Assembly: GCA_964654185.1 (NCBI GenBank)
Contig: CAZZIE010000001.1
Location: 391-64,390 of the forward strand
Direction of reading: 5' to 3'
DNA length: 64,000 nt
Source: an uncultured Spirochaetaceae bacterium
Lineage (GTDB): Bacteria; Spirochaetota; Spirochaetia; DSM-27196; PWMO01
Made by a program: the position numbers and the translations under genes. The notes beneath the pieces were generated by a model. It saw only the letters and a program-made list of their open reading frames with translations. It was not told the DNA's origin and did not search any database. Below are positions 44,771 to 57,461 of this stretch, piece after piece. Position 1 is the stretch's first letter. Each line of letters starts with the position of its first letter.

Positions 44771-46492
44771 ATGCGAAATCGGCGAATCGAGAAGGCCCCG
44801 GTCGGTATTGAGGGCTTCGACTTCATAACCGGTGGCGGGCTGCCCAGGGGACGCTTGACCCTCGTTACGGGCCCCGCCGGCAGCGGTAAGACGATATTCG
44901 GAGTTCAGTTTCTCGTTCACGGAGTTCGGGATCACGGCGAGCCCGGCGCTTACGTCGGGTTCGAGGAAACCGAAGAGGAGTTGCTCGACAACTTCGGCAG
45001 CTTCGGCTACGGCCTGGAAGAGCTGACCGGTGCGAACAAACTCCTCCTGGATCACATTGAAGCCTTTCCACTCAACACCTCGGAGGCGGGGGACTACGAT
45101 CTGGACGGGCTCTTCGTACGTCTGGATGAGACCTTGAAGAGCGTCGGGGCCAAACGGCTTGTTCTGGATGCATTTCCCGCACTCTTCGCCGGCTTCACGA
45201 ACACTCAGGCGGTGCGCTCGGGACTCATGCGCCTGTTCAGCTTTCTGAAGAGCCGGGGTGTCACCGCAATCGCAACGGCGGAGAGCGCCACCCAGGTCGC
45301 GCGGTACGGACTCGGGCGGTCCCTTTCGGACTGCGTCATCAACTTTGACACGACCCTTCACGGTCGAATTGCCACCAGGCACCTTCGCGTTGCCAAGTAC
45401 CGCGGTTCAATGCATCACGACGATGAGTTTCCCTTCCTGATCTCCAACAACGGCGTCAGGGTGATGCCGGTGACCTCAGTGCACCAGGATTATCCGGTTT
45501 CCCGGGAAAGGATCACCACCGGAATCCCGAGCCTGGACGCAATGCTCGGCGGTGGTGGCTTCTACCGGGGCAGCAGCATTCTCGTGTCCGGTGAGGCCGG
45601 GACAGGCAAGACGAGTATTGCCGCCCATTTCGCACGGTCCGCCTGCTTGCGTAACGAGCGCAGCCTCTACTGCGCCTTCGAAGAGGCCGCGGACGAGGTT
45701 GTTCGCAACATGTCGTCGATAGGTCTGAACTTTCCGGAATGGATTGATCAGGGGCTGCTGAAAGTCTTCGTCTCCCGGGCAACCCGCCACGACCTGGAGG
45801 TTCACCTCGCCAACCTGGAGGAAGCCGTCGTTGAGTTCCGCCCGACGGTCATGGTGATCGACCCGGTATCGAATCTCCTGCGGGCGGGTTCTTTCGGAGA
45901 CGTGGCGTCAATGATTTCGCGGCTGGTTGATTTCCTGAAGTCGCACGGTGTTACCGCCATGTTCACCGTCCTGAGCAAGTGGGGCGGTGGCGAGTACCAG
46001 GAATCCATTGATATCTCCTCGGTCATGGATGCCTGGATTCAGCTGCGAAATCAGGAGGCGAGTGGTGAGCACACCCGGCTTCTGTCGATTGCGAAGGCGC
46101 GGGGAATGCCCCACTCCAATCAGGTTCGGGAGTTCATGATTACGGAGAATGAAATTCAACTGGTCGATGTATACGCCGCCGGAGGCGAAGTTCTGACCGG
46201 CTCGGCGCGGGTTGCCCGACTGGAAGCGGACCGCCGGGACGCGATCCGGCGGCGCCTGGAAGTGGAACGGGCCGAGCGGGAGCTGGCGAGCCGCAGAACG
46301 GCCATTGAGAAGCAGATAGCTGAACTGAAAGGGGAGCTCGAACAGATCGAGGAGGACTACAGGTACAGCCGCCTCTGGCATCAACAGGAGGCGGCATCCC
46401 ACGAGAGTGAGCGGAACCTGGTTGCACGGGAGCGCTGGGCGGAGGGAGCGATGGAGGGGGCGAGTGGCAAAGACGACGGGAAGTCGGAGTGA
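44771..46492 (+). CDS. kaiC: KaiC-family double RecA-like ATPase with a C-terminal coiled-coil extension
   Basis: Two KaiC domains: Walker A GPAGSGKT plus catalytic FEETEEE, and Walker A GEAGTGKT plus FEEAADE. DISSVMD aligns with the cyanobacterial phospho-site segment (ISTITD). The last ~90 aa are heptad-like and charged (RLEADRRDAIRRRLEVERAERELASRRTAIEKQIAELKGELEQIEE). Confidence 0.85.
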   Translation: MRNRRIEKAPVGIEGFDFITGGGLPRGRLTLVTGPAGSGKTIFGVQFLVHGVRDHGEPGAYVGFEETEEELLDNFGSFGYGLEELTGANKLLLDHIEAFPLNTSEAGDYDLDGLFVRLDETLKSVGAKRLVLDAFPALFAGFTNTQAVRSGLMRLFSFLKSRGVTAIATAESATQVARYGLGRSLSDCVINFDTTLHGRIATRHLRVAKYRGSMHHDDEFPFLISNNGVRVMPVTSVHQDYPVSRERITTGIPSLDAMLGGGGFYRGSSILVSGEAGTGKTSIAAHFARSACLRNERSLYCAFEEAADEVVRNMSSIGLNFPEWIDQGLLKVFVSRATRHDLEVHLANLEEAVVEFRPTVMVIDPVSNLLRAGSFGDVASMISRLVDFLKSHGVTAMFTVLSKWGGGEYQESIDISSVMDAWIQLRNQEASGEHTRLLSIAKARGMPHSNQVREFMITENEIQLVDVYAAGGEVLTGSARVARLEADRRDAIRRRLEVERAERELASRRTAIEKQIAELKGELEQIEEDYRYSRLWHQQEAASHESERNLVARERWAEGAMEGASGKDDGKSE

Positions 46493-46778
46493 GCCCTGGC
46501 GGTTCGAGCTGTACGTTGCGGGTACCTCGCCGAAGCAGCAGCTCGCACTCCGAAATCTCACGGACATCTGTGATGCCGCACTCGGTACGGACTACACCAT
46601 CGACGTCATTGATATTCTCGAGCATCCCGGATTGAGCAGGGAACGGCAGATCCTCGCGACACCGACGGTGATCCGGATCACTCCATTGCCGGAGCGACGG
46701 ATTGTCGGAGATCTCACCCAGCGTGATGCGGTGTACCGCGGTCTGGAGCTGCCCCGGCTGCAGGAGGATCGCGTCTAG
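46464..46778 (+). CDS. kaiB: KaiB-like thioredoxin-fold protein
   Basis: About 104 aa from GTG 46464 (GGAGG 6 nt upstream), overlapping the kaiC 3' end. It has the KaiB signature ELYVAG.SP.S..A..NL..IC ... IDVIDILEHP....E.QILATPT. Confidence 0.8.
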   Translation: MAKTTGSRSEPWRFELYVAGTSPKQQLALRNLTDICDAALGTDYTIDVIDILEHPGLSRERQILATPTVIRITPLPERRIVGDLTQRDAVYRGLELPRLQEDRV

Positions 46779-46791
46779 TAAAGCGGATTAC

Positions 46792-47772
46792 ATGAGTATC
46801 ACCCTGAGAAGCGCTCTCGAACAAGCAGAACCCAATCTCAACCGAGTCTTGTACCAACTTGCCGACGGCATTCTCCTGGTGGATAAAGAGGGGATTGTCG
46901 TCTATGCCAATCCGGCGGCGGAGAGCCTCTTCGGCTATGAGAGTGGCAAGATGGAAGGGTGCATGCTTGGCTATCCGGTGATCGCAGGGATGGCCGAGGT
47001 AGAGATTCCTCAGGACGATGGTAACATTGCGGTGGCGGAGTTTCGCTCAGTGGAAATCACCTGGCGCGATCGTCCGGCGTACCTCGCGAGTTTTCGCGAC
47101 ATTACTCAGCGAAAGAACGCGGAGAAGCGGGTTGCTGCCCTGAGCAAGGCGCTGGTAAGCGCGTATGAGCGGGCGCAGCGGGAAATCGGCCATGAGCTCC
47201 ACGACGGCGTCGGACAGATGCTGCTGGGCGTCCGTCTCTCCCTGGACAGCGCCCGCCGGGCCGGAGCGGACGAGATGCCGCAGCGCCTGGAGAAGCTCGG
47301 CACCATGGTGGATGAGATCGTTGCGGAGCTCAGACGCATGTCCCATGAGCTCAAGCCGGCGGTTCTGGACGACTTCAGCTTTCTGGAGGCCCTCCACAGC
47401 CACCTGGAGCGCCTCCGCGACGAGACCGGCCTGGAGGTCGAGTTCACCCACCGCGGCCTTTCGGGGCGCAACACCGACATGGTGGAAACCGTCGCTTTCC
47501 GCATCATTCAGGAGGCGCTGACGAATGTCATCCGCCACGCGGACGTCGCCCGTGCGACCCTCCTGGTGGAGGAGGTGGATGATGTCCTGCGTCTCCGCAT
47601 TGCCGACAGCGGCAAGGGGTTCGAGGTAGCCGACCACTCGGACGCTTCCATCGGCTTGCGCGGCATGGCCGAGCGGGCGGAGCTGATCGGGGGTACCTTC
47701 GAAGTCGCATCCGCCACGGGCCGCGGTACCGCCATCACCGCCGTGCTCCCTCTCACTGATTCGGCACGGTAA
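46792..47772 (+). CDS. PAS-domain sensor histidine kinase (HisKA_3/NarL-partner type)
   Basis: 326 aa from ATG 46792. PAS-like N-terminus (GILLVDKEGIVVYANPAAESLFGY), an H-box HELHDGVGQ, and an HATPase_c domain (ADSGKGF ... GLRGMAERAELIGG). Confidence 0.85.
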   Translation: MSITLRSALEQAEPNLNRVLYQLADGILLVDKEGIVVYANPAAESLFGYESGKMEGCMLGYPVIAGMAEVEIPQDDGNIAVAEFRSVEITWRDRPAYLASFRDITQRKNAEKRVAALSKALVSAYERAQREIGHELHDGVGQMLLGVRLSLDSARRAGADEMPQRLEKLGTMVDEIVAELRRMSHELKPAVLDDFSFLEALHSHLERLRDETGLEVEFTHRGLSGRNTDMVETVAFRIIQEALTNVIRHADVARATLLVEEVDDVLRLRIADSGKGFEVADHSDASIGLRGMAERAELIGGTFEVASATGRGTAITAVLPLTDSAR

Positions 47773-48709
47773 GATTTCCGATCCGCCGCAGCACGGCGAC
47801 GTATCCTTCTCGGTCCACCTCCATGATCGCTGTTACGTGTTCCCCTTCACATCGCACGCTCGCACCGCGCAGCGTCGACTGATTCAGCTCCATGCGAAGG
47901 CCCATGATGCGGCGAGTACGGTGAATGGTCGGGGCCAGGGCGCATGCCATGGCAATTGGATCGGGATGCATGGCGAAGGGCGTTCCGTACACCCGCTCCG
48001 TCCGGCGAAGCACGAACTCCTGAAGCTTCCAGAAGAGATCGGTCCCCGGCCCCGGGGGAAGCCCGAAGGACTTCATCTCCTCGGCGGTGAACCTGAGCGA
48101 GACGCAGGCGTCCCAGGGCACCACCTCCATGGGAATCCCCGCGTTCAGGACGAACTGCACCGCCTCCGGATCGGCGTAGAAATTGAACTCAGCGAATCGA
48201 GTGATGTTGCCCGTCTCGATTGCGCCTCCCATGACGACCAGCCGCCCGATATTCTCCTGCAGGTCGGGATGAAGATTCAGGGCAATGGCGAGATTCGTCA
48301 GCGGCCCCAGGGTCACGAGCGTCGCTCCCGGATGCGCCTCCAGGAGCCGGGCGAGGGCCGTCGGTGCCGGGTCCGGTCGGGCGGACTGCCCGGGGGCGTT
48401 CACAGGCGCCGCCGGAAGCTCTATTTCGCCGAGGCCGTTCTTCCCGTGCACTCCTTCGGCGCGGACCACGCCCTCCAGGAGCGCCTTCGTCGCGCCTCGA
48501 TAGACCGGCACGGCATCGTGGCCGAAGTAGGCGAGGAGGCGGTGTACGTTTTCCGTCACCTGCTCCACCCCGACGTTTCCGTTTACCGTGGTGACACCGA
48601 CGAGCTCCGCCTCCGGTGATGCCAGGAGCATCATGATGGCGACGGCGTCGTCAATGCCGCAGTCCGTGTCGACAATGTAGGGCGTCCGGGCGCCGTCGGG
48701 TCCGTTCAT
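47753..48709 (-). CDS. inosine/uridine-preferring nucleoside hydrolase family protein
   Basis: The N-terminal YIVDTDCGIDDAVAIMMLL (DxDxxxDD) motif and the length (318 aa) fit the IUNH family. Confidence 0.85.
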   Translation of the reverse strand: MNGPDGARTPYIVDTDCGIDDAVAIMMLLASPEAELVGVTTVNGNVGVEQVTENVHRLLAYFGHDAVPVYRGATKALLEGVVRAEGVHGKNGLGEIELPAAPVNAPGQSARPDPAPTALARLLEAHPGATLVTLGPLTNLAIALNLHPDLQENIGRLVVMGGAIETGNITRFAEFNFYADPEAVQFVLNAGIPMEVVPWDACVSLRFTAEEMKSFGLPPGPGTDLFWKLQEFVLRRTERVYGTPFAMHPDPIAMACALAPTIHRTRRIMGLRMELNQSTLRGASVRCEGEHVTAIMEVDREGYVAVLRRIGNLTVPNQ

Positions 48710-48772
48710 GCTCCTGAGCGTACCATGGCGACGGCGGGCGTTGAAGCAGCAGAGCGGATGCGCGTGTAGATC

Positions 48773-51409
48773 ATGACTGCAATGATCTTCCTGTCATACG
48801 TACTCGACATGGATGCCGGCCTTCCTGTGCTGCTCTCCATCTTCACGCGGAGCCTTCCTTTCGGTGCGCTCGTACCGGCGGTGGGGGTGGACGTAGCCGA
48901 GCGGCGTCTCCCGACACCGTGGCTCCGGGCAGCCGCCGGCGCCGCGGTGGTCCACCCGCTGCTCCTGCTCGCTGTGGCCAACGGCGCCGTGGCTCTCCTC
49001 GCTGCCCTCGGCGCAGCCATGGGCGCCGCTCTCGGCGCCGCAACCTGCTACGCCGTGCTTCGCCTTGCCGGCGCCCTTTCCGGCATCGGTCGGGGAGACC
49101 TGCGGCTGGGTACGGTTCTCGGCCTGGGAACGGGCTTCCCCTCCGCGTTCTTCGCCCTCGCCGCGGCCACCGCCGCGTGCGGCGTCTTCATGGCGGCACG
49201 CCGTCGGCGGGTCACGGCGTTCGGCCCCTTTCTGGTCGGCGCCTACGCCGCCGCCGTCGCCTTGGTCGCTCCGGCACCCCTGGCCGCAGCGCCGGGATCC
49301 GCGCCGACGGAGCCTCTCGGCCCGGAGTCGGTCATCCCGGAAATGGAGTTTCGCAATGAAGCGGTGGCGTCCGTTCTCCTGGTCCTCGGGCACGCTGCCG
49401 GCAGGAGCGTTCTGCCCGACGCTACCGTCACCGGCACCGCCTCCTACTACTTCCGGGAGCGCAGCTTCGACGCCGCTCTGGCGGCCTTCGCCGAGGCGCA
49501 GGACCTCTTCGTGGAGGATCGCGACGGGACGCTTCACGTCTCCCGGGTGTACGCGGCGCGACACGCCGACGGCGCGCTGACCGTGCGCGCCCGGGAGGTG
49601 CCTCTGGGCACGCTCCTCGATCGCATTGACCGGGTTACGGGGGTGCCGGTGACCCACGCGGGCGTTGCGGGCATGCGCGGAAGCGTTCATGCAGAGCAGC
49701 TCCCGGTGGAGGCGATTCTGGAGGCGATCGCGGCGCCCCACCCGGACCTGGCGGTGCGTGAGGTCGGGCCGGGCTACGTGGTTGCGCCGCCGGAGCGCCG
49801 CGAGCTGGAAGCGTCGAAAGTGCAGGTCGGTGTGGGACCCGAAGGCCTGGATGTGGTGATCCGCGACGCCGACTTCGCCCGGGTGTTGGAGTCACTCGCG
49901 GAAGCGAGCGGGATGCAGTACTTGAGCCTTCTGCGGCGCTCCCCGGTCATCGCCGATCTTGCGCTTTCCGGGGTCGAGCTTCCGGAGGTGGTGCGGGCAC
50001 TCGCCTTCGCCGCAGAGGCGACTGCGGTGAAGCGGGAAGGGCGCTGGCTCTTTCTTCCGGGTCGTACGGCAACGCCGCAGGATCTTCTGGCCGTGACGCT
50101 GATTGTTCATCTGGAGCACGTGCCGGTGCGGCAGGTTCTGGAGCAGGTGCCCCGGCAGCACGCCGCCTCTGCGAGCCTTGCCGCCGTTCCGGGGGAGAAC
50201 GCCGTCGCAGTGACCGGACTGCCCGACGAGCTGGAACCGGTCCTGGCGTACCTGGCAATCATGGACCGGGAGCCCGCCGGGATTGCGTATCACCGCTTCG
50301 ATCTGAGCTACGCCGATCCCGCGGAGATCCTTGCCGCGCTGCCGGCGGGAATACCCCGGGAGCACGCCGTCGTGCTCGAAGAGACAAATGCCCTCATGCT
50401 CCGGGTGACCGACTCGCAGCGGGAACGGGCCGCGCGGTTCATTGCCGACATGGACGTGAGCCCCCGGGCGGTAGCGGTGAGACTGCAGCACACCGAGGCC
50501 GCCGTAATCATCGACTCAATGCCGGATACGATTCCTCTCCGGTACGTGCACCGCACCGGGGATGCGAAGCTGCTGCTCTTCACCGGGCCTCCTGAGGTCG
50601 AGGCGCGCCTGCGGGAGCTTCTGGCCGCGGTGGATGCGCCGGCGCCGCAGATCCGCTACGACCTCTTCATTGTGCAGTACCAGGAGGGTAAGAGCGTCGA
50701 CTACCGGCTGTCGATCGAGAGCGTCGAGGTGCGCCCCTTCGACACGGCCATCCTGCTCGGCCGCCTGGGCGAGTTGCTCTCCCTCAGCGCCGACGTCATC
50801 TCGCTCTTCGGGCACCGCTTCGCCGTCTCTCTGAGCAGCGCCCTCAGCAACAACGAGGCGCAGGTCCTTGCCGACACGTCGGTGACGACGCTCTCCGGCA
50901 CGCCGGCCTCATTCCGCAACACCGAGACCTATCGCTACCGAGATGTTCCGCCGGCAACCGACGAAGACGCCGGGCCGGTCGGTGTGACGAGGGAGATCAC
51001 CTCAGGACTTTTTATCGATATCGATGGGGACGTTGTCGGCCCCGACGAGGTGGCTCTTTCGATAGCCGCCACGGTCTCCAAGCGCGGCCGCGACGTCGGT
51101 GACACCTCGGGGAACCCGCCGCCGACGGCGGAGCGCGTGGTGACCAGCACGCTCCGGGCGCGGTCCGGGCGGCCCATCGTGGTGGGAAGCTTCCTCCTCC
51201 GCGACCGCACCCGGAGCGTCCGGCGCATCCCGATTCTGGGGCACATCCCGGTCCTGGGCTGGCTCTTTCGCGGCGTGCAGTCATCCAGCGAGGAGTCGGA
51301 GCTGGTGGTCTACCTGGTGCCTCACGTTCTCACACCGCCGGCGCAGCTATCGACGGAGGAGCAGCTCCGGGCGATTCACGCGGCGTGGAAGGCGGGAGCG
51401 CCGCGGTGA
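48773..51409 (+). CDS. single ORF joining an A24 prepilin-peptidase-like membrane domain (about aa 1-170) to a secretin (GspD/PilQ-like)
   Basis: N-terminal part: VGVDVAERRLP (first Asp motif), GIGRGDLRLG (GxGDxK/R-L motif) and AFGPFLVGAY (C-terminal motif). Then come N0/N1-like periplasmic repeats (MEFRNEAVASVLLVLGHAAG...). The C-terminal secretin core is SNNEAQVLADTSVTTLSGTPASF ... RIPILGHIPVLGWLFRG ... ELVVYLVPHVL. There is no in-frame stop between the parts. Confidence 0.75.
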   Translation: MTAMIFLSYVLDMDAGLPVLLSIFTRSLPFGALVPAVGVDVAERRLPTPWLRAAAGAAVVHPLLLLAVANGAVALLAALGAAMGAALGAATCYAVLRLAGALSGIGRGDLRLGTVLGLGTGFPSAFFALAAATAACGVFMAARRRRVTAFGPFLVGAYAAAVALVAPAPLAAAPGSAPTEPLGPESVIPEMEFRNEAVASVLLVLGHAAGRSVLPDATVTGTASYYFRERSFDAALAAFAEAQDLFVEDRDGTLHVSRVYAARHADGALTVRAREVPLGTLLDRIDRVTGVPVTHAGVAGMRGSVHAEQLPVEAILEAIAAPHPDLAVREVGPGYVVAPPERRELEASKVQVGVGPEGLDVVIRDADFARVLESLAEASGMQYLSLLRRSPVIADLALSGVELPEVVRALAFAAEATAVKREGRWLFLPGRTATPQDLLAVTLIVHLEHVPVRQVLEQVPRQHAASASLAAVPGENAVAVTGLPDELEPVLAYLAIMDREPAGIAYHRFDLSYADPAEILAALPAGIPREHAVVLEETNALMLRVTDSQRERAARFIADMDVSPRAVAVRLQHTEAAVIIDSMPDTIPLRYVHRTGDAKLLLFTGPPEVEARLRELLAAVDAPAPQIRYDLFIVQYQEGKSVDYRLSIESVEVRPFDTAILLGRLGELLSLSADVISLFGHRFAVSLSSALSNNEAQVLADTSVTTLSGTPASFRNTETYRYRDVPPATDEDAGPVGVTREITSGLFIDIDGDVVGPDEVALSIAATVSKRGRDVGDTSGNPPPTAERVVTSTLRARSGRPIVVGSFLLRDRTRSVRRIPILGHIPVLGWLFRGVQSSSEESELVVYLVPHVLTPPAQLSTEEQLRAIHAAWKAGAPR

Positions 51410-52959
51410 CCGGCACGGACGACCGGCCGCGGCGTCTCGCTGAGTTCGGCGAGCTTCCCGGTGAGGAGGAGCAGTATCCCCTGAGTTTCTGCGAACGCCA
51501 CCGGGCGGTGCTGCTCCGGGAGGGAACGCCGGGGGCGGACCCGCCGGGGAAGGGCCTGCCGGGGAAGGGCCCGCCGGGGGCGGGCGCGCTGGTCGGCGTG
51601 GCGGCGCCGGTTCCGTCCTACGTGGAGGAGCGGTTGCGACGACTCCACGGCGGGCCGGTAACCGTCGTTCCCCTGGCACCGCAGGATGTCTACCAGTTCC
51701 TGGCGGAGCGGCGGCTTCATCGGGAGGACGCGCGCCGGCAGCGCCGGGTGGCAAGGCGGAGTGCAGCCGTGCGCGACGGTGCGGGCCCGGGTCCGCGCTC
51801 CCTGGGATTGACTGCGAATGATGCGAGAGGCGGAGAAGTCACTGTCGGAGGCGCCGGTGAGGCGTTTCTTCAGGGCATTCTCGACGAGGCGGTGCGTACC
51901 GGAGCTTCGGATGCCCACCTCATGGCCGGTTCCGCCGGCGTCTCTCTTCGCTTTCGCCGGGAGGGCGCTCTCGGAGAGGCGCGGGCGGTGCCCCGGGAGC
52001 TCACGGCGCGTCTCGTCGCTCGGCTGAAGGTGCGGATTCGAGGAAACCCCGGACAGCGCCGTAAGCCCCAGGAAGGGCGCTTTGGCTTCACCGTGCGAGG
52101 CACCGTCTACGAGGTTCGCGCCTCCATTCTGCCTGGCCTCCACGGAGAGAGTGTGTCCCTGCGCTTCCTGCGGACCTTCAAAGGTGGCATCTCCCTGGAC
52201 GGCCTCGGCTTCCCCGGTCGGATCGTCACGCTCCTGAACGGGGTCGCAGAGCGTACCGACGGTCTGTTCCTGGTAACGGGCCCGACAGGAAGCGGGAAGA
52301 CCACCACTCTCCACGCCGTTGCCCGGCTCCTGTGCCGGCGCGACCGTCGCGTCGTCACCATTGAGGATCCCATTGAGTACGAGCTCCCCGAGGCGGTGCA
52401 GCTGCAGACGAACGCGCGATTGCACCTCACCTTTGACCTTCTGCTGACCAAGGCGCTGAGACACGATCCGGACGTGCTCCTTCTCGGCGAGATTCGGGAT
52501 GCCGAGACCGCGGCCCTGGCGGTGCGCAGCGCCCTTACCGGTCATCTGGTCCTTGCAACCATGCACACCGGCACGGTGTTCACCGGCATCCTGCGATTGC
52601 GCAACCTCGGCGCGACATCCGATGAGGTCGCCTCGGCCCTCTGCGGCGTACTCTCTCAGCGCTTGGTTCGTCGTGTGGGGATCTCCCCGGTGGGTGCCTC
52701 CCCGGTGGGTGCCTCCCCGGTAGGTGTTCCCCCGGTGGGTGACACGCGACAGGCGTCCGCCGACGGGCGGATTCCCATCTGTGAGGCCCTCATTGACCCG
52801 ACGGACCCGACGAATTTCGCACCGGCAGGACGATTCGTTGAAGCAGTGGGACGGGATTGGCTGTACCTCGATATGAAGGACGATGCCAGGCGCCTCGTCT
52901 CAGCCGGTGTAACCACCTGGGAAGACGTGGCGCGTGTTGCGCGAATTGGAGGCGTGTGA
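51406..52959 (+). CDS. gspE: type II/IV secretion ATPase (GspE/PilB family)
   Basis: Walker A GPTGSGKTTT, Asp box, Walker B LLLGEIRD, His box ATMHTG. GTG at 51406 overlaps the secretin stop (GTGA); an alternative GTG is at 51385. A (SPVGA)x4 insertion is encoded by 15-bp repeats at 52684-52743. Confidence 0.85.
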   Translation: MTGTDDRPRRLAEFGELPGEEEQYPLSFCERHRAVLLREGTPGADPPGKGLPGKGPPGAGALVGVAAPVPSYVEERLRRLHGGPVTVVPLAPQDVYQFLAERRLHREDARRQRRVARRSAAVRDGAGPGPRSLGLTANDARGGEVTVGGAGEAFLQGILDEAVRTGASDAHLMAGSAGVSLRFRREGALGEARAVPRELTARLVARLKVRIRGNPGQRRKPQEGRFGFTVRGTVYEVRASILPGLHGESVSLRFLRTFKGGISLDGLGFPGRIVTLLNGVAERTDGLFLVTGPTGSGKTTTLHAVARLLCRRDRRVVTIEDPIEYELPEAVQLQTNARLHLTFDLLLTKALRHDPDVLLLGEIRDAETAALAVRSALTGHLVLATMHTGTVFTGILRLRNLGATSDEVASALCGVLSQRLVRRVGISPVGASPVGASPVGVPPVGDTRQASADGRIPICEALIDPTDPTNFAPAGRFVEAVGRDWLYLDMKDDARRLVSAGVTTWEDVARVARIGGV

Positions 52960-54064
52960 TGCGGATGAGAGGGACGTGATGGGCGTGATCGGATCACGGC
53001 TCACGGCACGAGAGCGAGAGAATCTCTACGCCGGACTCGCGGGTGCGGTGCGCCTTGGCGCAACCGTGGAGGCTGCACTGCACGGATGCAGAGCGTCGGG
53101 CGACAGCGCCCTGGCGCGTCGACTTTCCGCCGCACAGCGCCACGCTGAGGAGGGGCTGACTCTCTCCGAAGCACTCTCCGCCGGCTTCGGACCCGCGCTG
53201 CCCGGGTGGGAGATCGCCGTCATTGCTGCCGCCGAAGGCGTCGGGGAGAGCCGCACGCCGGAGGATGGGCCGGGTGAGACCGTTGTGGCGGAGGTGCTGG
53301 AGGGCCTTTCCCGATACGCCGCGGCGGAGAGCTCTGCAACGGGACGGTTGGCGCTTTCCTTCGGCTACGCCTTCGCGGTGTTGCTCCTCCTGGCCGCACT
53401 TTCTGCGGCAACAAGGTGGCTTGTGCTCCCCTCCGTCGAGACGGCGGTCGTTGCCTTCGCCGCCGGGCCCGGAACCTCCCTGGATGGGGCGCGGAGGGCC
53501 GCCCGGACGCTCCCGCTTGTCATTGGAGGCGTCCTGGTGCTTGGAGTTGCCGTGCCGGTCGGTCTACGCGCCGGAGGAAGCTCGTTTCGGTTGCGCCTTC
53601 TCGCCCTTCTTCCTCGGTCGATTGCCGGCACGCTGGCGGGAGTCCTGCCCCGGAGCGCGGCGCTCGTGCGGGTCCTCCGGATCGCGCTCCGGGCCGGTGG
53701 CGACCTCCTGGACGCCGTGGATCTGGCGCTGCGCGTTGCCCTTCCCGGAGCGGATCGCCTGGACCGGGACCTTTCGGGCGCAGCGCAACGCGGAGGGTCC
53801 GTCTCGAAAGTGCTGGCCCTCCACGGCCTACTCCCGCCCGATCTGGCGGAACGGCTCGCTTCCGCGGAGCGCTCCGGCGGGATCGAGACGGCCCTTGCGG
53901 GTGTTGAGGCGGAGCTGGAGCGGCGCAGAGACACGCTCCTGGAGGCGCTGCCCGGCATCGGCGCTGCTGCGGCCACAGCAGTGTGCGGGGTCCTCCTGGG
54001 ATGGTTCGCCCTCGCGGTGGTGGTACCGGCGCTGACCGCCCTGGCAGCGGGTGCTCCGCTATGA
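52934..54064 (+). CDS. gspF: type II secretion system F-family inner-membrane platform protein (GspF/PilC-like)
   Basis: Two T2SSF-like helical repeats and 3 hydrophobic segments. It sits between the ATPase and pseudopilin genes. The start is ambiguous (GTG 52934 or ATG 52979). Confidence 0.65.
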   Translation: MLRELEACDADERDVMGVIGSRLTARERENLYAGLAGAVRLGATVEAALHGCRASGDSALARRLSAAQRHAEEGLTLSEALSAGFGPALPGWEIAVIAAAEGVGESRTPEDGPGETVVAEVLEGLSRYAAAESSATGRLALSFGYAFAVLLLLAALSAATRWLVLPSVETAVVAFAAGPGTSLDGARRAARTLPLVIGGVLVLGVAVPVGLRAGGSSFRLRLLALLPRSIAGTLAGVLPRSAALVRVLRIALRAGGDLLDAVDLALRVALPGADRLDRDLSGAAQRGGSVSKVLALHGLLPPDLAERLASAERSGGIETALAGVEAELERRRDTLLEALPGIGAAAATAVCGVLLGWFALAVVVPALTALAAGAPL

Positions 54065-54642
54065 GGAGCGCGACAGTGAAGCCGCCGCCGCTGCGGGGCG
54101 AGTGGGTGCGCGGAGGAGCCTCGAGTCTCCGAGGTGAACGGGTGCGCGGAGGAACGTCGGGCCTCCGGGGTGAACGGGGCCGCGGAGGAGCACGCCGCCG
54201 CCGACATGCGCGCGCGCCCCGGGATGACGGCGGGTGGACCTTTCTGGAAACCATCGTCGTCATCTCCATCATCCTGCTCCTTTCGGGCACGGTCGGGATC
54301 GTCGCCGTGGGGCAACTCGGGAGGGCGCGTGTGGCCGTGGCTCGGGCGCAACTGGCGGGATTCGCGCTGGCCCTGGAGAGCTACGCCCTGGACTGCGGGA
54401 GCTATCCCACCGAGGTGCAGGGGCTCGAAGCGCTCTGGGCGCGCCCGATGATGGCGCCCGTGCCGGAGGACTGGGCTGGTCCCTACCTCATGCGGGAGGT
54501 TGGAGCGGACCCCTGGGGTAATCCCTACGAGTACCGCGTTCCCGGACCGCACGGGCTGCCCTACGAGATCCGATCTCTCGGCAGTGACGGCCTTCCCGGC
54601 GGGGAGGGAAGGGCCGCGGACATCCTCTCCTGGGAGGCGTAG
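54061..54642 (+). CDS. gspG: GspG-like major pseudopilin with an unusually long repeat-containing leader
   Basis: Prepilin motif G|WTFLETIVVISIILLL, then a GspG-like body (GRARVAVARAQL ... DPWGNPYEYR ... YEIRSLGSDG). The ATG overlaps the gspF stop (ATGA). The leader contains 3 x 12 aa (LRGE.VRGG...). Confidence 0.8.
   Translation: MRSATVKPPPLRGEWVRGGASSLRGERVRGGTSGLRGERGRGGARRRRHARAPRDDGGWTFLETIVVISIILLLSGTVGIVAVGQLGRARVAVARAQLAGFALALESYALDCGSYPTEVQGLEALWARPMMAPVPEDWAGPYLMREVGADPWGNPYEYRVPGPHGLPYEIRSLGSDGLPGGEGRAADILSWEA
54091..54198 (+). repeat. 36-bp x 3 in-frame tandem repeat in the pseudopilin leader
   Basis: Units at 54091-54126, 54127-54162 and 54163-54198 encode LRGEWVRGGASS / LRGERVRGGTSG / LRGERGRGGARR. 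Confidence 0.85.
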
Positions 54643-54693: not shown

Positions 54694-56382
54694 TTGCGCA
54701 GCCCCGCAACGGCACCCCGCGCCGAAGCGTTGCGCAGCCCCGCCAGGGTACAGCGCCTTGTACCGGCATGCCTTCGCGGAGCGATCGCCGTGAGGTGGCT
54801 GCTGTGCCTGCTTGCCCTGGCACCGGTTCTGGCCCCTGCGCCGTTGGTGTCGGTCCTGGCGGAGGAGGTGGCAGCGTACCGCACGCTCGCGGCGCAGGGT
54901 CTGCGGGTGCAGCAAAGACTGACGATGGAGGAGGTAAGCGTGGGAACGGAGCTACTCATTGCAGAGCGAGAGCACGGCAAGCTCGTGCTCCGGCCGTCTT
55001 CGACTCGACAGCCGGCCGGCGGATCGCCCGGCAAATCGAGCGGCGCGCGAGTAGCGGCAAGGGCTGCGCGGGGAGTTGAGGTGCCGATATGCATGGCGGG
55101 CCCGGACACAGAAGTCTCCATACTGGACGGTCGGCGCCGACGGTACGAGGTGACGACAAGTCCGGTAGAAGCGGACTTCCCCCTTCGTACGTGCCGCGAC
55201 GAGGTGGTTGAATCAACCCGTGAGTGGCGCGGCCGGCGCCGTCGGGTGAGTACCCTGCAAAGCGTTCTCCGGGAGTATCGGGAGCTTGAGCCCGCCGCCG
55301 ACCTCATGAGCGCGGCAACCCTTCTGGAGCTGGTGAACCGCGACCGCCTCGATCAAAGGGCTCATGATGTCGAACCAACCCGACGCCACGCCGTCGCGCT
55401 CGTAGCGGCGACGTGGTTCACCGTTGTGGCCCACCAGGGCAGGCGCGTCCTGGACGTCCGATCCGATTCGATTGTCGCGGAACAGACCGACTTCGATGTC
55501 GATGCCGACGCGCCGGCCCCTGGGTCCACCGCCTCCGACACTGCGATCCTGCTCCGGGAGCAACTCGAGCGCTGCCTGGATCAGATCTATCATGCGGCGT
55601 TCCGGGAGGCGGGACTGGAGCTGCTTGTTACGCAAGAGGCACTGCTTCCGCGCGTAGAGACGGTCTTTCCCGGCGCCGCAATTGCAACTCTCGGAGAGCG
55701 GCTGGCGGCCCGCCCTGACGGTCACAATCCTTCCAGCGTAGACCGGAGGATGCACACGAAGTGGCAGGGGCCGCACCATCGAGGGGCCCGCCCGACGCCG
55801 CAGCGACCGACCTGGGGGATGATCGACTTTCCGTCCCCGCACCGGGCCCGCCGGCGACGTGCGGGAAGGAGTGCTGCCGCCGGAGCGGTGCTGATGCCGG
55901 TTGCGGCATCCCTTGCCGTAACGGGCTTCCCGGGGTTCGGACAGGCCGGCGGCGCCGGGCCGGCAGCCTCGTCTACCCCGGAATGCCACGTCATGGCATC
56001 GACCGGACAGGGGGACCCGACGCATCCCGAGGGGCAAGCGCCGCCGGCATCGCAGATCGCCGATACGCACGAGCGGGCGCTACAACCGCCGGAGAGAGCG
56101 CCCGACGGCGAGGTCGGGGAACCGGTAGAGCAGATGGAGGTATCTGCGCCGGCGGCCGCTGCTGAGCCTGGCGATGTCCCCGGCCCGCCGGGCCCTCCGG
56201 AACCGCGCTTTGCCTTTGCGGGAACGGGCACGACCGGCGAGGGTGAGCGCGTCTGGTACTTCGTTGATGGAGCTACCCGTCGGGTCGTCGCCGTGACGAG
56301 CGACGCAGCGGGGGATGATGAAGGCAGATCCGCCGACGAAGGGACTGGAGACGGAACACATGCGGGCGACGGCGACCTCTAG
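54694..56382 (+). CDS. hypothetical protein (possible assembly-platform component); start uncertain
   Basis: 562-aa ORF. It has a hydrophobic segment near the N-terminus (VRWLLCLLALAPVLAPAP), a second TM-like segment (AVLMPVAASLAVTGFPGF), and an acidic Gly/Pro-rich tail. No motif recognised. Confidence 0.4.
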   Translation: MRSPATAPRAEALRSPARVQRLVPACLRGAIAVRWLLCLLALAPVLAPAPLVSVLAEEVAAYRTLAAQGLRVQQRLTMEEVSVGTELLIAEREHGKLVLRPSSTRQPAGGSPGKSSGARVAARAARGVEVPICMAGPDTEVSILDGRRRRYEVTTSPVEADFPLRTCRDEVVESTREWRGRRRRVSTLQSVLREYRELEPAADLMSAATLLELVNRDRLDQRAHDVEPTRRHAVALVAATWFTVVAHQGRRVLDVRSDSIVAEQTDFDVDADAPAPGSTASDTAILLREQLERCLDQIYHAAFREAGLELLVTQEALLPRVETVFPGAAIATLGERLAARPDGHNPSSVDRRMHTKWQGPHHRGARPTPQRPTWGMIDFPSPHRARRRRAGRSAAAGAVLMPVAASLAVTGFPGFGQAGGAGPAASSTPECHVMASTGQGDPTHPEGQAPPASQIADTHERALQPPERAPDGEVGEPVEQMEVSAPAAAAEPGDVPGPPGPPEPRFAFAGTGTTGEGERVWYFVDGATRRVVAVTSDAAGDDEGRSADEGTGDGTHAGDGDL

Positions 56383-57052
56383 TGCGTCGAGTAGTGCGTC
56401 GAGTGCGTCCTTCCTGAGTAGGTTTTTCCTGGCGGGGCTGATGCTCCTCGTGATCTCGGCGTGCTCTACTCAGCACAGCTACGTCGGGAGCTTCCGGAAG
56501 GCCGACCTCTCCGGGGCCGTGTACGGAGCTACCGCCGACGGGGCGCCCCGGGGAGGACTATCCGGTGCTCGTGTCGCGCTGGACGGCGGAGAGTCGGTCA
56601 TCGCGGACTCACGGGGACGCTTTCTGATCCCGAATGTGCGGATTGGTCGGCACCGCCTCCAGGTCAGTCGTGACGGATACATCCCGGTGGACCGAGAGAT
56701 AGAGTTCCTCAATCGCTCTCAAGTTGTCTACGTGAGGCTGGTCAGGTTGGATGAGGCGGTCGCCGAGATTGTCGCTGATCTTGCATCAGCAGAGAATGGG
56801 CTGTCGTCGGACGGCGCGAGCATTCGCCGCCGCGCCCTCTCCGTGGTGCGGGCCGACCCGCGGAACCCCGTCGCACGATTCGCATTGGCTGCACTAGCTC
56901 TGGAGACGGGTAGGCCGCATGAAGCGGCCTACCACCTCTCCCGGATGTCGCCGAAGTACCGGGCGACCCCGAACGTGCAGGAGATCGAGGATCGAGCCCT
57001 TGCCGCTCGCTTCCTACGGGCGGGGCAGACTACGCGGGAAAGGTCCCCATGA
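56360..57052 (+). CDS. lipoprotein with a carboxypeptidase-regulatory-like beta-sandwich domain and a helical tail
   Basis: Lipobox LMLLVISAC. GRFLIPNVRIGRHRLQVSRDGYIPVDREIEF is typical of CarboxypepD_reg-like domains. An alternative start is at 56315. Confidence 0.55.
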   Translation: MRATATSSASSSASSASFLSRFFLAGLMLLVISACSTQHSYVGSFRKADLSGAVYGATADGAPRGGLSGARVALDGGESVIADSRGRFLIPNVRIGRHRLQVSRDGYIPVDREIEFLNRSQVVYVRLVRLDEAVAEIVADLASAENGLSSDGASIRRRALSVVRADPRNPVARFALAALALETGRPHEAAYHLSRMSPKYRATPNVQEIEDRALAARFLRAGQTTRERSP

Positions 57053-57461
57053 GCTCCGCCTCCGCCAGGACGTGGCCCTGCATGGCCTGATCGAGGTCGC
57101 GGCGACCCGCCCCCTTCGACAGGCCGAGCCTGGTGTCCAGTGCGTAGAGTTTGAAGTAGTAGCGGTGCGTCCCCGAGGGAGGGCAGGGTCCGCCGTACTG
57201 CGCCTTTCCGAAGTCGTTCTTACCCGGTGTGCCCGGTTCGGTCGCTTCCGGAATCTCGGACGTGGCCGGATCAATGTCCCAGGACAGCCAGTGCTGGAAG
57301 GTCTTGCCCGGGGCGTCCGGATCCTCGCAGATCAGAACCAGGCTCTGCGCCGTGGGTGGAACATCCTGGATCCGGAGCGGAGGGCTGAGGTTGCTGCCCT
57401 TGCAACTGTACCTGGCCGGAATCTCGCCTTCATGTGCGAATGCTGTGCTCTGTAGAATCAT
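57030..57461 (-). CDS. YbhB/YbcL (PEBP/Raf-kinase-inhibitor-like) family protein
   Basis: 143 aa from ATG 57461 (AGGAGG RBS). Family blocks are CEDPDAP, HW and GPCPPSGTHRYYFKLYAL. The ORF-track extension to 57830 is not supported. Confidence 0.85.
   Translation of the reverse strand: MILQSTAFAHEGEIPARYSCKGSNLSPPLRIQDVPPTAQSLVLICEDPDAPGKTFQHWLSWDIDPATSEIPEATEPGTPGKNDFGKAQYGGPCPPSGTHRYYFKLYALDTRLGLSKGAGRRDLDQAMQGHVLAEAELMGTFPA

What the first reader, a model, noticed from the sequence alone, without database searches (positions are those of the whole stretch)
48773..51409. Complete A24 prepilin-peptidase domain and a secretin encoded in one uninterrupted reading frame
Residues 1-170 carry all three signature blocks of small (CpaA/TadV-size) prepilin peptidases, including both catalytic Asp contexts: VDVAERRLP, GRGDLRLG and AFGPFLVG. 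The same frame continues without a stop into periplasmic N0/N1-like repeats and a canonical secretin C-domain. The peptidase is an inner-membrane enzyme and the secretin an outer-membrane channel. A covalent fusion would therefore have to span the envelope or be cleaved after synthesis. The alternative is an internal start near MEFRNEAV (about 49342), giving two products from nested frames. Either way, no separate prepilin peptidase gene is present in this cluster.
Basis: partly seen in the sequence, partly recalled or inferred. Interest (0 to 1): 0.8.

Follow-up and report, generated by a model that had tools for sequence, protein, structure and literature searches.

The report
Prepilin peptidase fused to secretin gene
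In a small group of uncultured spirochaetes, a short deletion has joined the gene for an inner-membrane prepilin peptidase to the gene for the outer-membrane secretin pore of the same type II secretion-like machine; the single precursor is probably cut back into two proteins by signal peptidase.

Summary
Window 48773-51409 (+) is one 878-codon ORF. Residues 1-~166 are a six-helix, TadV-size A24 prepilin-peptidase homolog with both catalytic Asp (D40; GRGD109) and the FGPFL block. Residues ~188-878 are a secretin.

It is not an assembly error. An independent ENA assembly (L005, 90% identical protein, dS about 0.23) has the same in-frame junction, and both halves are under purifying selection.

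The fusion is derived. Three split relatives (L003, L001/L002, L007) have a 169-177-aa peptidase gene ending LHG*, overlapped by 8 nt with the ATG of a secretin that has its own signal peptide. Relative to L003, the fusion equals an 88-nt (3n+1) deletion between GCCGCCGTC and TCCGCCGTC. It removed the stop, the start and the first half of the signal peptide, but kept its second half and cleavage region (PLAA|APGS).

Predicted topology puts the peptidase C-terminus in the periplasm. The best model is therefore a polyprotein whose last peptidase helix acts as an internal export signal and is cut by signal peptidase I (inferred, not shown).

An uncleaved, envelope-tethered secretin and initiation at M140 remain possible. 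No other such fusion was found.

The parts
48773..51409 (+). Fused ORF, 878 aa (A24 peptidase-like domain + secretin). Relatives start at the second ATG, 48782 (MIFLSY).
   Evidence: same fusion in L005
48773..49270 (+). A24 (TadV/CpaA-size) prepilin-peptidase-like domain, residues 1-166, six predicted TM helices, no methyltransferase domain
   Evidence: Pfam PF01478 weak hit; hhalign 98.5% against a PF01478-annotated profile; invariant motifs; AF2 helices 16-25, 48-68, 72-103, 107-120, 124-143, 151-165
48890..48892 (+). Codon of D40, first putative catalytic Asp (VDVAERRLP)
   Evidence: invariant column in 68 sequences and in all fused and split relatives
49088..49099 (+). G106-R-G-D109, GxGD motif with the second putative catalytic Asp
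49190..49192 (+). In-frame ATG (M140). Starting here would give MAARRRRVTAFGPFLVGAYAAAVALVAPAPLAAAPGS..., a conventional-looking pre-secretin. No SD-like sequence upstream; this Met is also present in split relatives.
49199..49291 (+). Hybrid segment, residues 143-173: RRRR + last peptidase helix (AFGPFL...) joined to the second half of the ancestral secretin signal peptide and its c-region (..VALVAPAPLAAA). Proposed internal export signal.
49250..49258 (+). GCCGCCGTC, the microhomology at the inferred deletion breakpoint (88 nt missing relative to L003)
   Evidence: codon-level comparison with L003 and L005
49286..49291 (+). Predicted signal peptidase I site, L170-A171-A172 | A173-P174 (L005: L-A-A | S-P). 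Inferred from the -3/-1 rule and from homology to the c-region of L003 (VAAA.PGS).
   Evidence: inference
49292..49333 (+). Pro/Gly/Ser-rich N-terminal tail of the mature secretin (PGSAPTEPLGPESV)
49334..50098 (+). Conserved mature secretin N-terminal region (starts IPEMEFRNE). No Pfam match; an N0-like identity is not verified.
   Evidence: AF2 model unusable
50099..50650 (+). Three Secretin_N (N1-like) repeats, residues about 443-502, 508-565 and 598-626
50846..51331 (+). Secretin C-domain (PF00263), residues 692-853
51406..52959 (+). GspE/PilB-family ATPase. The GTG start overlaps the secretin stop (GTGA), with GGGAG 7 nt upstream.
52934..54064 (+). GspF-like platform protein (start uncertain)
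53983..54642 (+). GspG major pseudopilin (start uncertain). Class-III leader ...RAPRDDGG|WTFLETIVVISIILLL, with the cleavage-site Gly codon at 54232. Presumed substrate of the A24 domain.
   Evidence: NCBIfam TIGR01710, 124.8 bits against a cutoff of 88.85

Best explanation
This is a real, inherited gene fusion restricted to a small clade of uncultured Spirochaetaceae. In the ancestral arrangement, a 169-177-aa A24 prepilin peptidase gene ends in ...LHG*. The secretin gene starts at an ATG that overlaps this stop by 8 nt, in the +1 frame, and encodes its own Sec signal peptide. A deletion of about 88 nt between the near-identical 9-mers GCCGCCGTC (peptidase tail) and TCCGCCGTC (secretin signal peptide) removed four things: the peptidase's periplasmic tail and stop, the secretin's ribosome-binding region and ATG, and the n-region and first half of the h-region of its signal peptide. 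It also put the two genes in frame. The result is an 878-aa precursor. Its last peptidase helix, preceded by RRRR on the cytoplasmic side and oriented in-to-out, runs directly into the surviving half of the signal peptide and its cleavage region (APAPLAA|APGS). Proposed mechanism, which is inferred: the six-helix domain inserts into the inner membrane with both Asp motifs at the cytoplasmic face; helix 6 acts as an internal export signal that threads the secretin part into the periplasm; signal peptidase I then cuts at the retained c-region. This leaves an active peptidase of about 172 aa in the inner membrane. It also releases a 706-aa secretin whose mature sequence from IPEMEF onward matches that of split relatives and which assembles in the outer membrane. 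The peptidase processes the operon's GspG pseudopilin (DDGG|WTFLE). The main functional consequence is obligatory 1:1 synthesis of the two proteins from one start codon.
For: Fusion is real: the ORF is uninterrupted. The same fusion occurs in the independent assembly L005, at 90% aa identity and dS about 0.23, with a diverged but open junction.

Fusion is derived: L003, L001/L002 and L007 are split and share the LHG*/ATG overlap, and each secretin has its own signal peptide. By dS, window and L005 are each other's closest relatives (0.24 against 0.29-0.37 to L003).

Deletion geometry: the gap is 88 nt (3n+1), which matches the +1 offset of the two genes, and 8 of 9 nt are shared at the breakpoints.

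Retained cleavage region: window PLAAAPGS, L005 PLAASPGS, L003 VAAAPGS, all at a similar short distance from the conserved IPEMEF.

Topology: six hydrophobic helices. All loop Arg clusters (44-52, 97-111, 143-146) lie on the same side as D40 and D109, no positive charge falls in the opposite loops, and nothing is hydrophobic after residue 215. [quoted passage not shown]

Both halves functional: dN/dS is 0.17-0.18 for the secretin, and 0.45 (bootstrap 0.26-0.81) for the A24 part against 0.28 for the split-split baseline. Both Asp, GxGD and FGP are intact in both fused lineages.

A24 homology: hhalign 98.5%, E 1.7e-15.

Substrate and context: GspG with a class-III leader, GspE and GspF lie in the same operon, and the window has no other A24 gene.
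Against: Cleavage itself is not shown. No signal-peptide predictor was available, and the site is inferred from homology and the -3/-1 rule. The hydrophobic stretch before the site (about 20 residues plus a 6-residue c-region) is longer than a typical Sec signal h-region, which can reduce signal peptidase I efficiency. Pro sits at +2, and would sit at +1 if the cut were after AAA, which would block cleavage. The junction's dN/dS is about 1, though that rests on only 10 substitutions, so constraint on the site is not demonstrated. The A24 part may be somewhat relaxed after the fusion (0.45 against 0.26-0.29, with overlapping intervals). The direction of the event (deletion) relies on outgroup comparison using short contigs, and the window/L005/L003 split is nearly a trichotomy.
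Confidence: 0.55

Rival explanations
1. The fusion stays uncleaved. The secretin remains covalently tethered to the inner membrane through the six-helix peptidase domain, so each subunit of the secretin multimer brings a prepilin peptidase to the base of the machine. One polypeptide is then anchored in both membranes.
For: The frame has been maintained across dS of about 0.23 in two lineages. The predicted periplasmic C-terminus of the A24 domain makes the tether topologically possible. A Pro-rich segment of about 20 residues (APAPLAAAPGSAPTEPLGPES) could act as a linker. About 500 residues of periplasmic domains precede the secretin C-domain. The long hydrophobic helix and the nearby Pro could disfavour signal peptidase I.
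Against: The junction keeps a recognisable signal-peptide c-region inherited from a cleaved precursor, with small residues at -1 and -3 in both fused lineages. No other secretin-length protein appears among the 150 closest of 1,375 A24 relatives, so there is no sign that a tether is a selected architecture. The simplest expectation for an accidental deletion that survives is that it restores the two original products.
Confidence: 0.2
2. Two products come from nested frames through internal initiation at M140 (ATG 49190). This start yields a conventional pre-secretin, MAARRRR-VTAFGPFLVGAYAAAVALVAPAPLAA|A..., exported and cleaved like any Sec substrate. Ribosomes starting at 48773/48782 make the peptidase-containing full-length form.
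For: M140 is in frame and is followed by a textbook n-region (RRRR), h-region and c-region. About half of the gene starts in these genomes, including the A24 gene's own start, lack an SD, so SD-independent initiation occurs in this organism.
Against: There is no SD-like sequence within 20 nt upstream of M140, whereas gspE, gspF and gspG in the relative L001 have strong AGGAGG sites and the split secretin starts have a G-run 7 nt upstream. M140 predates the fusion, being present in split L003 and L001, so it is not an adaptation to it. No promoter-like site was found on the + strand in 48500-49500. This route would still leave the full-length product to be dealt with.
Confidence: 0.15
3. One reading: an internal start at MEFRNEAV (M191, about 49343) gives a separate secretin.
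For: There is an in-frame ATG with a GGAG upstream.
Against: The GGAG is 15 nt from the ATG. The product would lack any signal peptide, since there is no hydrophobic segment after residue 215. In all split relatives IPEMEF lies inside the mature protein, downstream of the signal peptide.
Confidence: 0.02
4. Artefact or decay: either a mis-assembly or sequencing error created the open frame, or the locus is a pseudogene on its way to loss.
For: The window probably comes from a metagenome-assembled genome, like all its relatives found here. L005 has low coverage (about 6x). Deletions between short repeats can be assembly errors.
Against: Two independent assemblies from different archives, 10% apart in protein sequence, share the same breakpoints. 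What is missing is a whole 88-nt segment including the start codon, not a single-base frameshift. Both halves show dN/dS well below 1. The downstream operon is intact.
Confidence: 0.03

Closest known systems
TadV / CpaA / FppA-type prepilin peptidases (MEROPS A24, Pfam PF01478) without the N-methyltransferase domain
   Same: About 170 aa, six helices, two conserved Asp with the second in GxGD, a C-terminal FGPFL block, and an operon that encodes a class-III-leader substrate. The review PMC10191384 states that TadV lacks the methylase domain and that two universally conserved Asp are critical.
   Different: Here the peptidase is translated as the N-terminal part of a secretin precursor and has no stop codon of its own. 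It sits in a GspD-E-F-G type operon rather than a Tad locus. The sequence is divergent (below Pfam's threshold). The nearest PF01478-annotated relatives are about 39% identical; the closest one examined sits in a Tad-like cluster, and two others are named Ilumatobacteraceae, an actinobacterial family.
GspD/PulD-type secretins of type II secretion systems
   Same: A PF00263 secretin C-domain and three Secretin_N repeats. It is the first gene of an operon with GspE, GspF and GspG.
   Different: It has no N-terminal signal peptide of its own; a polytopic membrane enzyme precedes the mature part. It is far below the NCBIfam GspD equivalog cutoff (76.7 against 351 bits). The roughly 250-residue N-terminal region has no Pfam match. 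No GspC, GspL or GspM was recognised nearby.
The same two genes in the sister lineages (L003, L001/L002, L007): split, translationally coupled peptidase and secretin genes
   Same: Orthologous proteins (the A24 part 63-80% and the secretin 56-80% identical), the same flanking genes (KaiC, KaiB, histidine kinase and nucleoside hydrolase upstream; GspE, GspF and GspG downstream), and the same conserved mature secretin sequence from IPEMEF onward.
   Different: They have two ORFs in different frames with an 8-nt overlap (ATGGCTAG or ATGGCTGA), and each secretin has a complete signal peptide. The fused lineages lack 88 nt (relative to L003) or more than 100 nt (relative to L001) at this point.
Bradyrhizobium japonicum FbcH, the cytochrome b-c1 polyprotein split at an internal signal peptide (Thony-Meyer and colleagues, about 1989-1991). 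Recalled from memory; no citable source was found in the held library.
   Same: As I recall it, a polytopic inner-membrane protein is translated in one frame with a downstream periplasm-facing protein, and an internal signal sequence directs export and cleavage into two functional proteins. This is the closest mechanistic analogy for the proposed processing.
   Different: The proteins are unrelated. In FbcH both products stay in one inner-membrane complex, whereas here the second product would travel to the outer membrane. Processing is documented for FbcH but only inferred here.
PilD / GspO (PulO) bifunctional prepilin peptidase-methyltransferases
   Same: The same catalytic module and the same kind of substrate, the pseudopilin leader.
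   Different: PilD has two extra helices and a Zn-binding Cys-rich methylase domain. The present domain starts directly with the peptidase module, so the pseudopilin is presumably not N-methylated by it.

Membership tests
Peptidase family A24 (type IV prepilin peptidase, PF01478) | Sequence homology to the family | tested here: met
   A spirochaete-only profile (A7) against a profile of 64 proteins, all with a precomputed PF01478 hit (A8): hhalign probability 98.5%, E 1.7e-15, 128 columns. The single-sequence search hit the PF01478 protein P0006 at E 5.9e-4 in a database of 5.8 billion sequences.
Peptidase family A24 (type IV prepilin peptidase, PF01478) | Passes Pfam's curated gathering threshold on its own | tested here: not met
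   19.1 bits against a cutoff of 26.5, E 0.0018, with only residues 63-139 aligned. This is a database criterion and not a biochemical feature. The sequence is a divergent member.
Peptidase family A24 (type IV prepilin peptidase, PF01478) | Two universally conserved Asp residues, the second in a GxGD context (PMC10191384) | tested here: met
   D40 and G106-R-G108-D109 lie in invariant columns of the 68-sequence alignment and are conserved in both fused lineages and all split relatives.
Peptidase family A24 (type IV prepilin peptidase, PF01478) | Polytopic membrane domain with the Asp residues at the cytoplasmic face | tested here: met
   By prediction only. There are six hydrophobic helices, and all Arg-rich loops are on the side of D40 and D109, consistent with the published topology.
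Peptidase family A24 (type IV prepilin peptidase, PF01478) | Fold similarity to a solved A24 structure (FlaK) | tested here: inconclusive
Peptidase family A24 (type IV prepilin peptidase, PF01478) | Cleaves class-III leader peptides of pilins or pseudopilins | not testable with these tools
   A candidate substrate is encoded in the operon (GspG, DDGG|WTFLE). Activity was not assayed.
Secretin family (PF00263) | Secretin C-domain and Secretin_N repeats above curated thresholds | tested here: met
   PF00263 scores 90.7 against 27.5 bits and PF03958 scores 47.1 against 28.2 bits. Positions were mapped.
Secretin family (PF00263) | Own N-terminal Sec signal peptide | tested here: not met
   The n-region, the ATG and half of the h-region present in relatives are deleted. 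Only the distal h-region and c-region remain, fused to peptidase helix 6.
GspD equivalog (NCBIfam TIGR02517) | Score above the equivalog cutoff | tested here: not met
   76.7 bits against a cutoff of 351.35, with only the C-terminal 115 residues in the best stretch. It is a secretin, but not a canonical GspD.
Type II secretion system (T2SS) gene cluster | Secretin, GspE ATPase, GspF platform, GspG major pseudopilin and prepilin peptidase | tested here: met
   T2SSE 276 bits, T2SSF 50.9 bits and T2SSG 115 bits. GspG passes the NCBIfam equivalog cutoff at 124.8 against 88.85 bits. GspE and GspF are below their equivalog cutoffs.
Type II secretion system (T2SS) gene cluster | Assembly-platform proteins GspC/L/M and minor pseudopilins GspH-K | tested here: not met
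   The downstream ORFs 54694-56382, 56315-57052 and 56919-57455 have no Pfam or NCBIfam match to these families. Only one class-III leader motif was found in the window. The machine is best called T2SS-like.

The most novel reading that the evidence does not exclude
The fusion is not processed. Each secretin subunit stays covalently anchored in the inner membrane by an active six-helix prepilin peptidase. A ring of peptidase active sites then sits directly under the outer-membrane pore, and pseudopilin maturation is physically built into a single envelope-spanning polypeptide. This would be the first secretin anchored in both membranes and the first prepilin peptidase that is a structural part of the machine.
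Probability: 0.2. Interest if true: 0.8.

Novelty: new variant of a known kind. Interest (0 to 1): 0.5.

Why it matters
All the parts are known: an A24 peptidase, a secretin and a T2SS-like operon. What I found no record of is their union in one reading frame. It was absent from the 150 closest of 1,375 A24 relatives in a 1.84-billion-protein library and from the literature searched.

The case comes with its own natural controls. Sister lineages 15-30% diverged at the DNA level keep the two genes split and translationally coupled. The origin (a microhomology deletion) and the rescue (retention of half a signal peptide) can therefore be read directly from the sequences.

If the polyprotein model is right, this is a clear bacterial example of how an accidental gene fusion across compartments is tolerated. 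The last helix of a membrane enzyme substitutes for the missing half of a signal peptide, and signal peptidase restores the two proteins.

It also forces 1:1 synthesis of an enzyme and a multimeric structural protein, which tests how much prepilin peptidase dosage matters.

If the protein is not cleaved, it would change how people picture the spatial relation between pilin maturation and the secretion machine. Either outcome can be tested with one tagged construct.

Tried and rejected

2. AF2 of residues 100-450 (junction plus secretin N-terminus) with a 4-sequence MSA gave pLDDT 35, which is unusable. The N0-like identity of residues 188-440 and the flexibility of the linker therefore remain unverified.

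3. More relatives. Two metagenome scans found no further members of this lineage, only distant secretins at 27-28% identity. The genome scan added one split relative, L007.

4. Literature. No report of an A24-secretin fusion was found, and no citable source was held for the FbcH polyprotein precedent. The TadV paper PMC1595517 is not held.

5. Internal start at M191 was rejected.

6. Assembly artefact or pseudogene was rejected.

7. A second A24 gene in the window was looked for with tblastn and an HMM over all stop-to-stop ORFs; none was found.

8. Promoter scan of 48500-49500. It found only one minus-strand match and nothing that would drive a separate secretin transcript.

9. My first profile searches included the PF01478 protein P0006 in the query and were therefore partly circular as evidence for A24 membership. 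This was replaced by the clean profile-profile test.
Full report
**1. The observation**

Window 48773-51409 (+) is a single 878-codon ORF with no stop.

The C-terminal part is clearly a secretin. Pfam Secretin scores 90.7 bits (cutoff 27.5) at residues 692-853. Secretin_N scores 47.1 bits (cutoff 28.2), with three repeats at about 443-502, 508-565 and 598-626.

The N-terminal part gives only a sub-threshold Peptidase_A24 hit on its own (19.1 bits against 26.5, E 0.0018) and no NCBIfam hit. The A24 assignment therefore needed independent support.

**2. Is the N-terminal part an A24 peptidase?**

- A single-sequence search found two close relatives and a 205-aa protein, P0006, that carries a precomputed PF01478 hit (39% identity, E 5.9e-4 against 5.8 billion sequences). 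P0006 sits in a Tad-like cluster.
- A profile search returned about 200 proteins of 167-291 aa. Nearly all carry PF01478, and many are named prepilin peptidase by their sources.
- That profile contained P0006, so I repeated the test without circularity. A profile of the five spirochaete sequences only (A7) against 64 PF01478-annotated proteins only (A8) gives hhalign probability 98.5%, E 1.7e-15, over 128 columns covering both Asp motifs and FGPFL.
- In a 68-sequence alignment, D40, R45, P47, G106, G108, D109, F150, G151 and P152 are invariant.
- AF2 on that alignment gives a six-helix bundle (pLDDT 70; 75-89 over residues 50-160).
- Fold searches were uninformative or unavailable.

According to a 2023 review (PMC10191384), the family is defined by a mostly membrane-embedded peptidase domain with two universally conserved Asp at the cytoplasmic face. 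TadV-type members lack the methylase domain, and PilD has eight TM regions with four cytoplasmic loops.

The present domain matches the six-helix peptidase module. Its Arg clusters (44-52, 97-111, 143-146) and both Asp lie on one side, and the opposite loops carry no positive charge. This gives an N-out, C-out topology. The peptidase C-terminus is thus naturally periplasmic, so a C-terminal fusion to an exported protein is topologically allowed.

**3. Context**

The ORF is the first gene of a T2SS-like operon:
- GspE-family ATPase, whose GTG start at 51406 overlaps the secretin stop.
- GspF-like platform protein.
- GspG major pseudopilin, which passes the NCBIfam cutoff (124.8 against 88.85 bits) and has a class-III leader ...RAPRDDGG|WTFLETIVVISIILLL.

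The window holds no other A24-like sequence. GspC, GspL, GspM and minor pseudopilins were not recognised. Source names of relatives place the lineage in Spirochaetota/Spirochaetaceae.

**4. Fused or split elsewhere?**

This comparison was decisive.

*(a) Split relatives.*
- L001/L002 (secretin 80% identical) have a separate 169-aa gene ending ...GLLHG*. Their secretin is mis-called at 706 aa in the source annotation. It really starts at an ATG overlapping that stop by 8 nt, in another frame, giving MARRPSHTR(APHTR)nARRFGALLATVLAVWFVMPRGAAA|EPAAD.
- L003 (A24 part 80% identical) has a 177-aa gene ending ...GVLHG*. Its secretin precursor is MARPTLRAVALLSAVLGVAATVQVAAA.PGSGSPEPVIPEMEF.
- L007 (secretin 56% identical) has the same layout, with ...GGLHG* and MAERCVIQAARRRRVVAAVALLLLAAARLSA|ETIPEMEF.

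*(b) A second fused lineage.* The 90%-identity cluster of the window protein contains a second member, P0007 (894 aa), from an independent ENA assembly (L005). It aligns end to end at 90% identity and has the same junction...RRRRLTAFGPFLVGAYAAAVAMVATTPLAAS.PGSAPPEPPGPASVIPEMEF.

The split, translationally coupled state is therefore ancestral, being present in three lineages including the most distant. The fusion is a shared derived character of window and L005. By dS, those two are each other's closest relatives (0.24 against 0.29-0.37 to L003), although the three are nearly equidistant in overall identity (86.6, 84.8 and 85.5%).

**5. How it arose**

Codon-level comparison shows that, relative to L003, the fused sequence follows the peptidase through TAC GCC GCC GCC GTC. 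It then continues with what in L003 follows TCC GCC GTC inside the secretin signal peptide. The missing segment is 88 nt (3n+1), which exactly compensates the +1 offset between the two genes.

The deletion removed:
- the peptidase's short periplasmic tail and stop codon;
- the G-rich putative ribosome-binding stretch and the ATG of the secretin;
- the n-region and the first half of the signal peptide's h-region.

It kept the distal h-region and the c-region.

**6. Is it functional?**

Between window and L005 (NG86 method):

| Region | dN/dS |
|---|---|
| Secretin, N-terminal part | 0.18 |
| Secretin, C-terminal part | 0.17 |
| A24 part, residues 1-160 | 0.43 |
| A24 part, residues 30-115 (both Asp motifs) | 0.25 |
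| Junction, residues 161-190 (10 substitutions only) | about 1 |

With bootstrap, the A24 part gives 0.45 (0.26-0.81) for the fused-fused pair, against 0.28 (0.18-0.44) for the split-split baseline. Selection is clearly purifying and may be mildly relaxed. All catalytic motifs are intact in both fused lineages. Assembly error and pseudogenisation are therefore very unlikely.

**7. Mechanism**

Shown:
- one frame, inherited by two lineages;
- a complete A24 module whose last helix is preceded by RRRR;
- a retained c-region (window PLAAAPGS, L005 PLAASPGS, L003 VAAAPGS);
- a conserved mature secretin sequence beginning at IPEMEF a few residues beyond it;
- no hydrophobic segment later in the protein.

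Inferred:
- Helix 6 (in-to-out) serves as an internal export signal.
- Signal peptidase I cuts most likely at L170-A171-A172|A173-P174. This rests on the -3/-1 rule and the avoidance of Pro at +1, both from established knowledge.
- The products would be a peptidase of about 172 aa and a secretin of 706 aa, essentially the same proteins as in split relatives.

The closest mechanistic precedent I know is the Bradyrhizobium FbcH cytochrome b-c1 polyprotein with an internal signal peptide. I recall this from memory; no source was available in the library.

I put about 0.55 on this model.

**8. Rivals**

- **Uncleaved tether (0.2).** It is topologically possible, and the hydrophobic stretch is long for a signal peptidase I substrate, but nothing positively supports it.
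- **Initiation at M140, ATG 49190 (0.15).** This would give a textbook pre-secretin. However, there is no SD, the Met predates the fusion, and the other operon genes in the relative use strong SDs. SD-less starts do exist in these genomes, so it cannot be excluded, and it could coexist with processing.
Rejected, because such a product would have no export signal, and the MEF motif lies inside the mature protein in all relatives.
- **Artefact or pseudogene (0.03).** Rejected for the reasons in sections 4 and 6.

**9. How unusual is it?**

An exhaustive HMMER search of 1.84 billion cluster representatives found 1,375 A24 relatives at E <= 1e-3. The best 150 are 91-462 aa, and none is secretin-length. 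The 120 best hits of the indexed search are at most 291 aa.

There are caveats. Only the top 150 were visible, and at the 50% clustering level the fused protein is evidently represented by a non-fused sequence, because it does not itself appear among the hits. Fusions can therefore hide inside clusters. More distant A24 subfamilies were not inspected.

The literature searches found no description of this architecture.

**10. Verdict**

This is a new variant of a known kind: a lineage-restricted fusion of two known components of a T2SS-like machine. Its origin is readable from the sequences, and the processing hypothesis is plausible and directly testable. Interest is moderate (0.5). It would be high if the protein proved to be uncleaved.

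Noticed in passing
L001 5541-5615 (and L002, one repeat unit shorter): The n-region of the relatives' secretin signal peptide is built from a 15-nt tandem repeat (GGGCACCGCACACGC, encoding APHTR, 4-5 copies). Two assemblies whose called secretin protein is identical differ by exactly one copy, so the signal-peptide n-region is length-variable.
   Followed up: partly
L001 5527-5542; L003 932-947; L007 about 960-976: All split relatives end the peptidase gene with ...LHG*. The secretin ATG overlaps this by 8 nt (ATGGCTAG or ATGGCTGA), and in L001 and L003 a G-run lies 7 nt upstream. The conserved peptidase tail probably reflects the embedded ribosome-binding site and start codon (translational coupling), all of which is deleted in the fused lineages.
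   Followed up: partly
window 54104-54191: A 36-nt tandem repeat (2.4 copies, 84% matches) lies between the end of gspF and the GspG leader. In the long GspG frame it encodes Arg/Gly-rich LRGE(R/W)VRGG repeats. The unit contains a GGAGG...CCTCC inverted pair. The true gspG start, and whether this is a regulatory element, are unknown.
   Followed up: no
window 33811-41664 (+): A giant 2,617-aa ORF encodes an RHS-repeat protein (14 RHS repeats, E 1e-117, plus DUF6531) in the most GC-rich part of the window (about 70%). It may be a polymorphic toxin.
   Followed up: partly
window 44771-48709; L001 1008-5009; L005 5999-9937: A KaiC, KaiB, PAS/HisKA_3 histidine kinase cluster and a divergently transcribed inosine-uridine nucleoside hydrolase lie immediately upstream of the secretion operon, in conserved synteny in all the longer relatives' contigs (L001, L002, L005). 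Only 63 nt separate the hydrolase start from the fusion ORF start.
   Followed up: no
L007 461-976: The most distant split relative has GRAD instead of GxGD and lacks the RRRR cluster before FGP. The Asp is kept, but the motif is degenerate, so peptidase activity there is less certain.
   Followed up: partly
window 54694-57455: The ORFs downstream of gspG (562 aa with no family match; 245 aa with a weak CarboxypepD_reg/TPR match; 178 aa) take the place where GspC/L/M and minor pseudopilins would be expected. Gene calls differ between L001 (223 + 212 aa) and L002 (548 aa) in this region.
   Followed up: no
L001 5673 / L002 5658 (public annotation MFW5785766.1): The public GspD annotation of the relatives starts at an internal Met (MPRGAAAEP, 706 aa), inside the signal peptide. 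The likely true start is 138 nt (L001) or 123 nt (L002) upstream, at the ATG overlapping the peptidase stop.
   Followed up: yes
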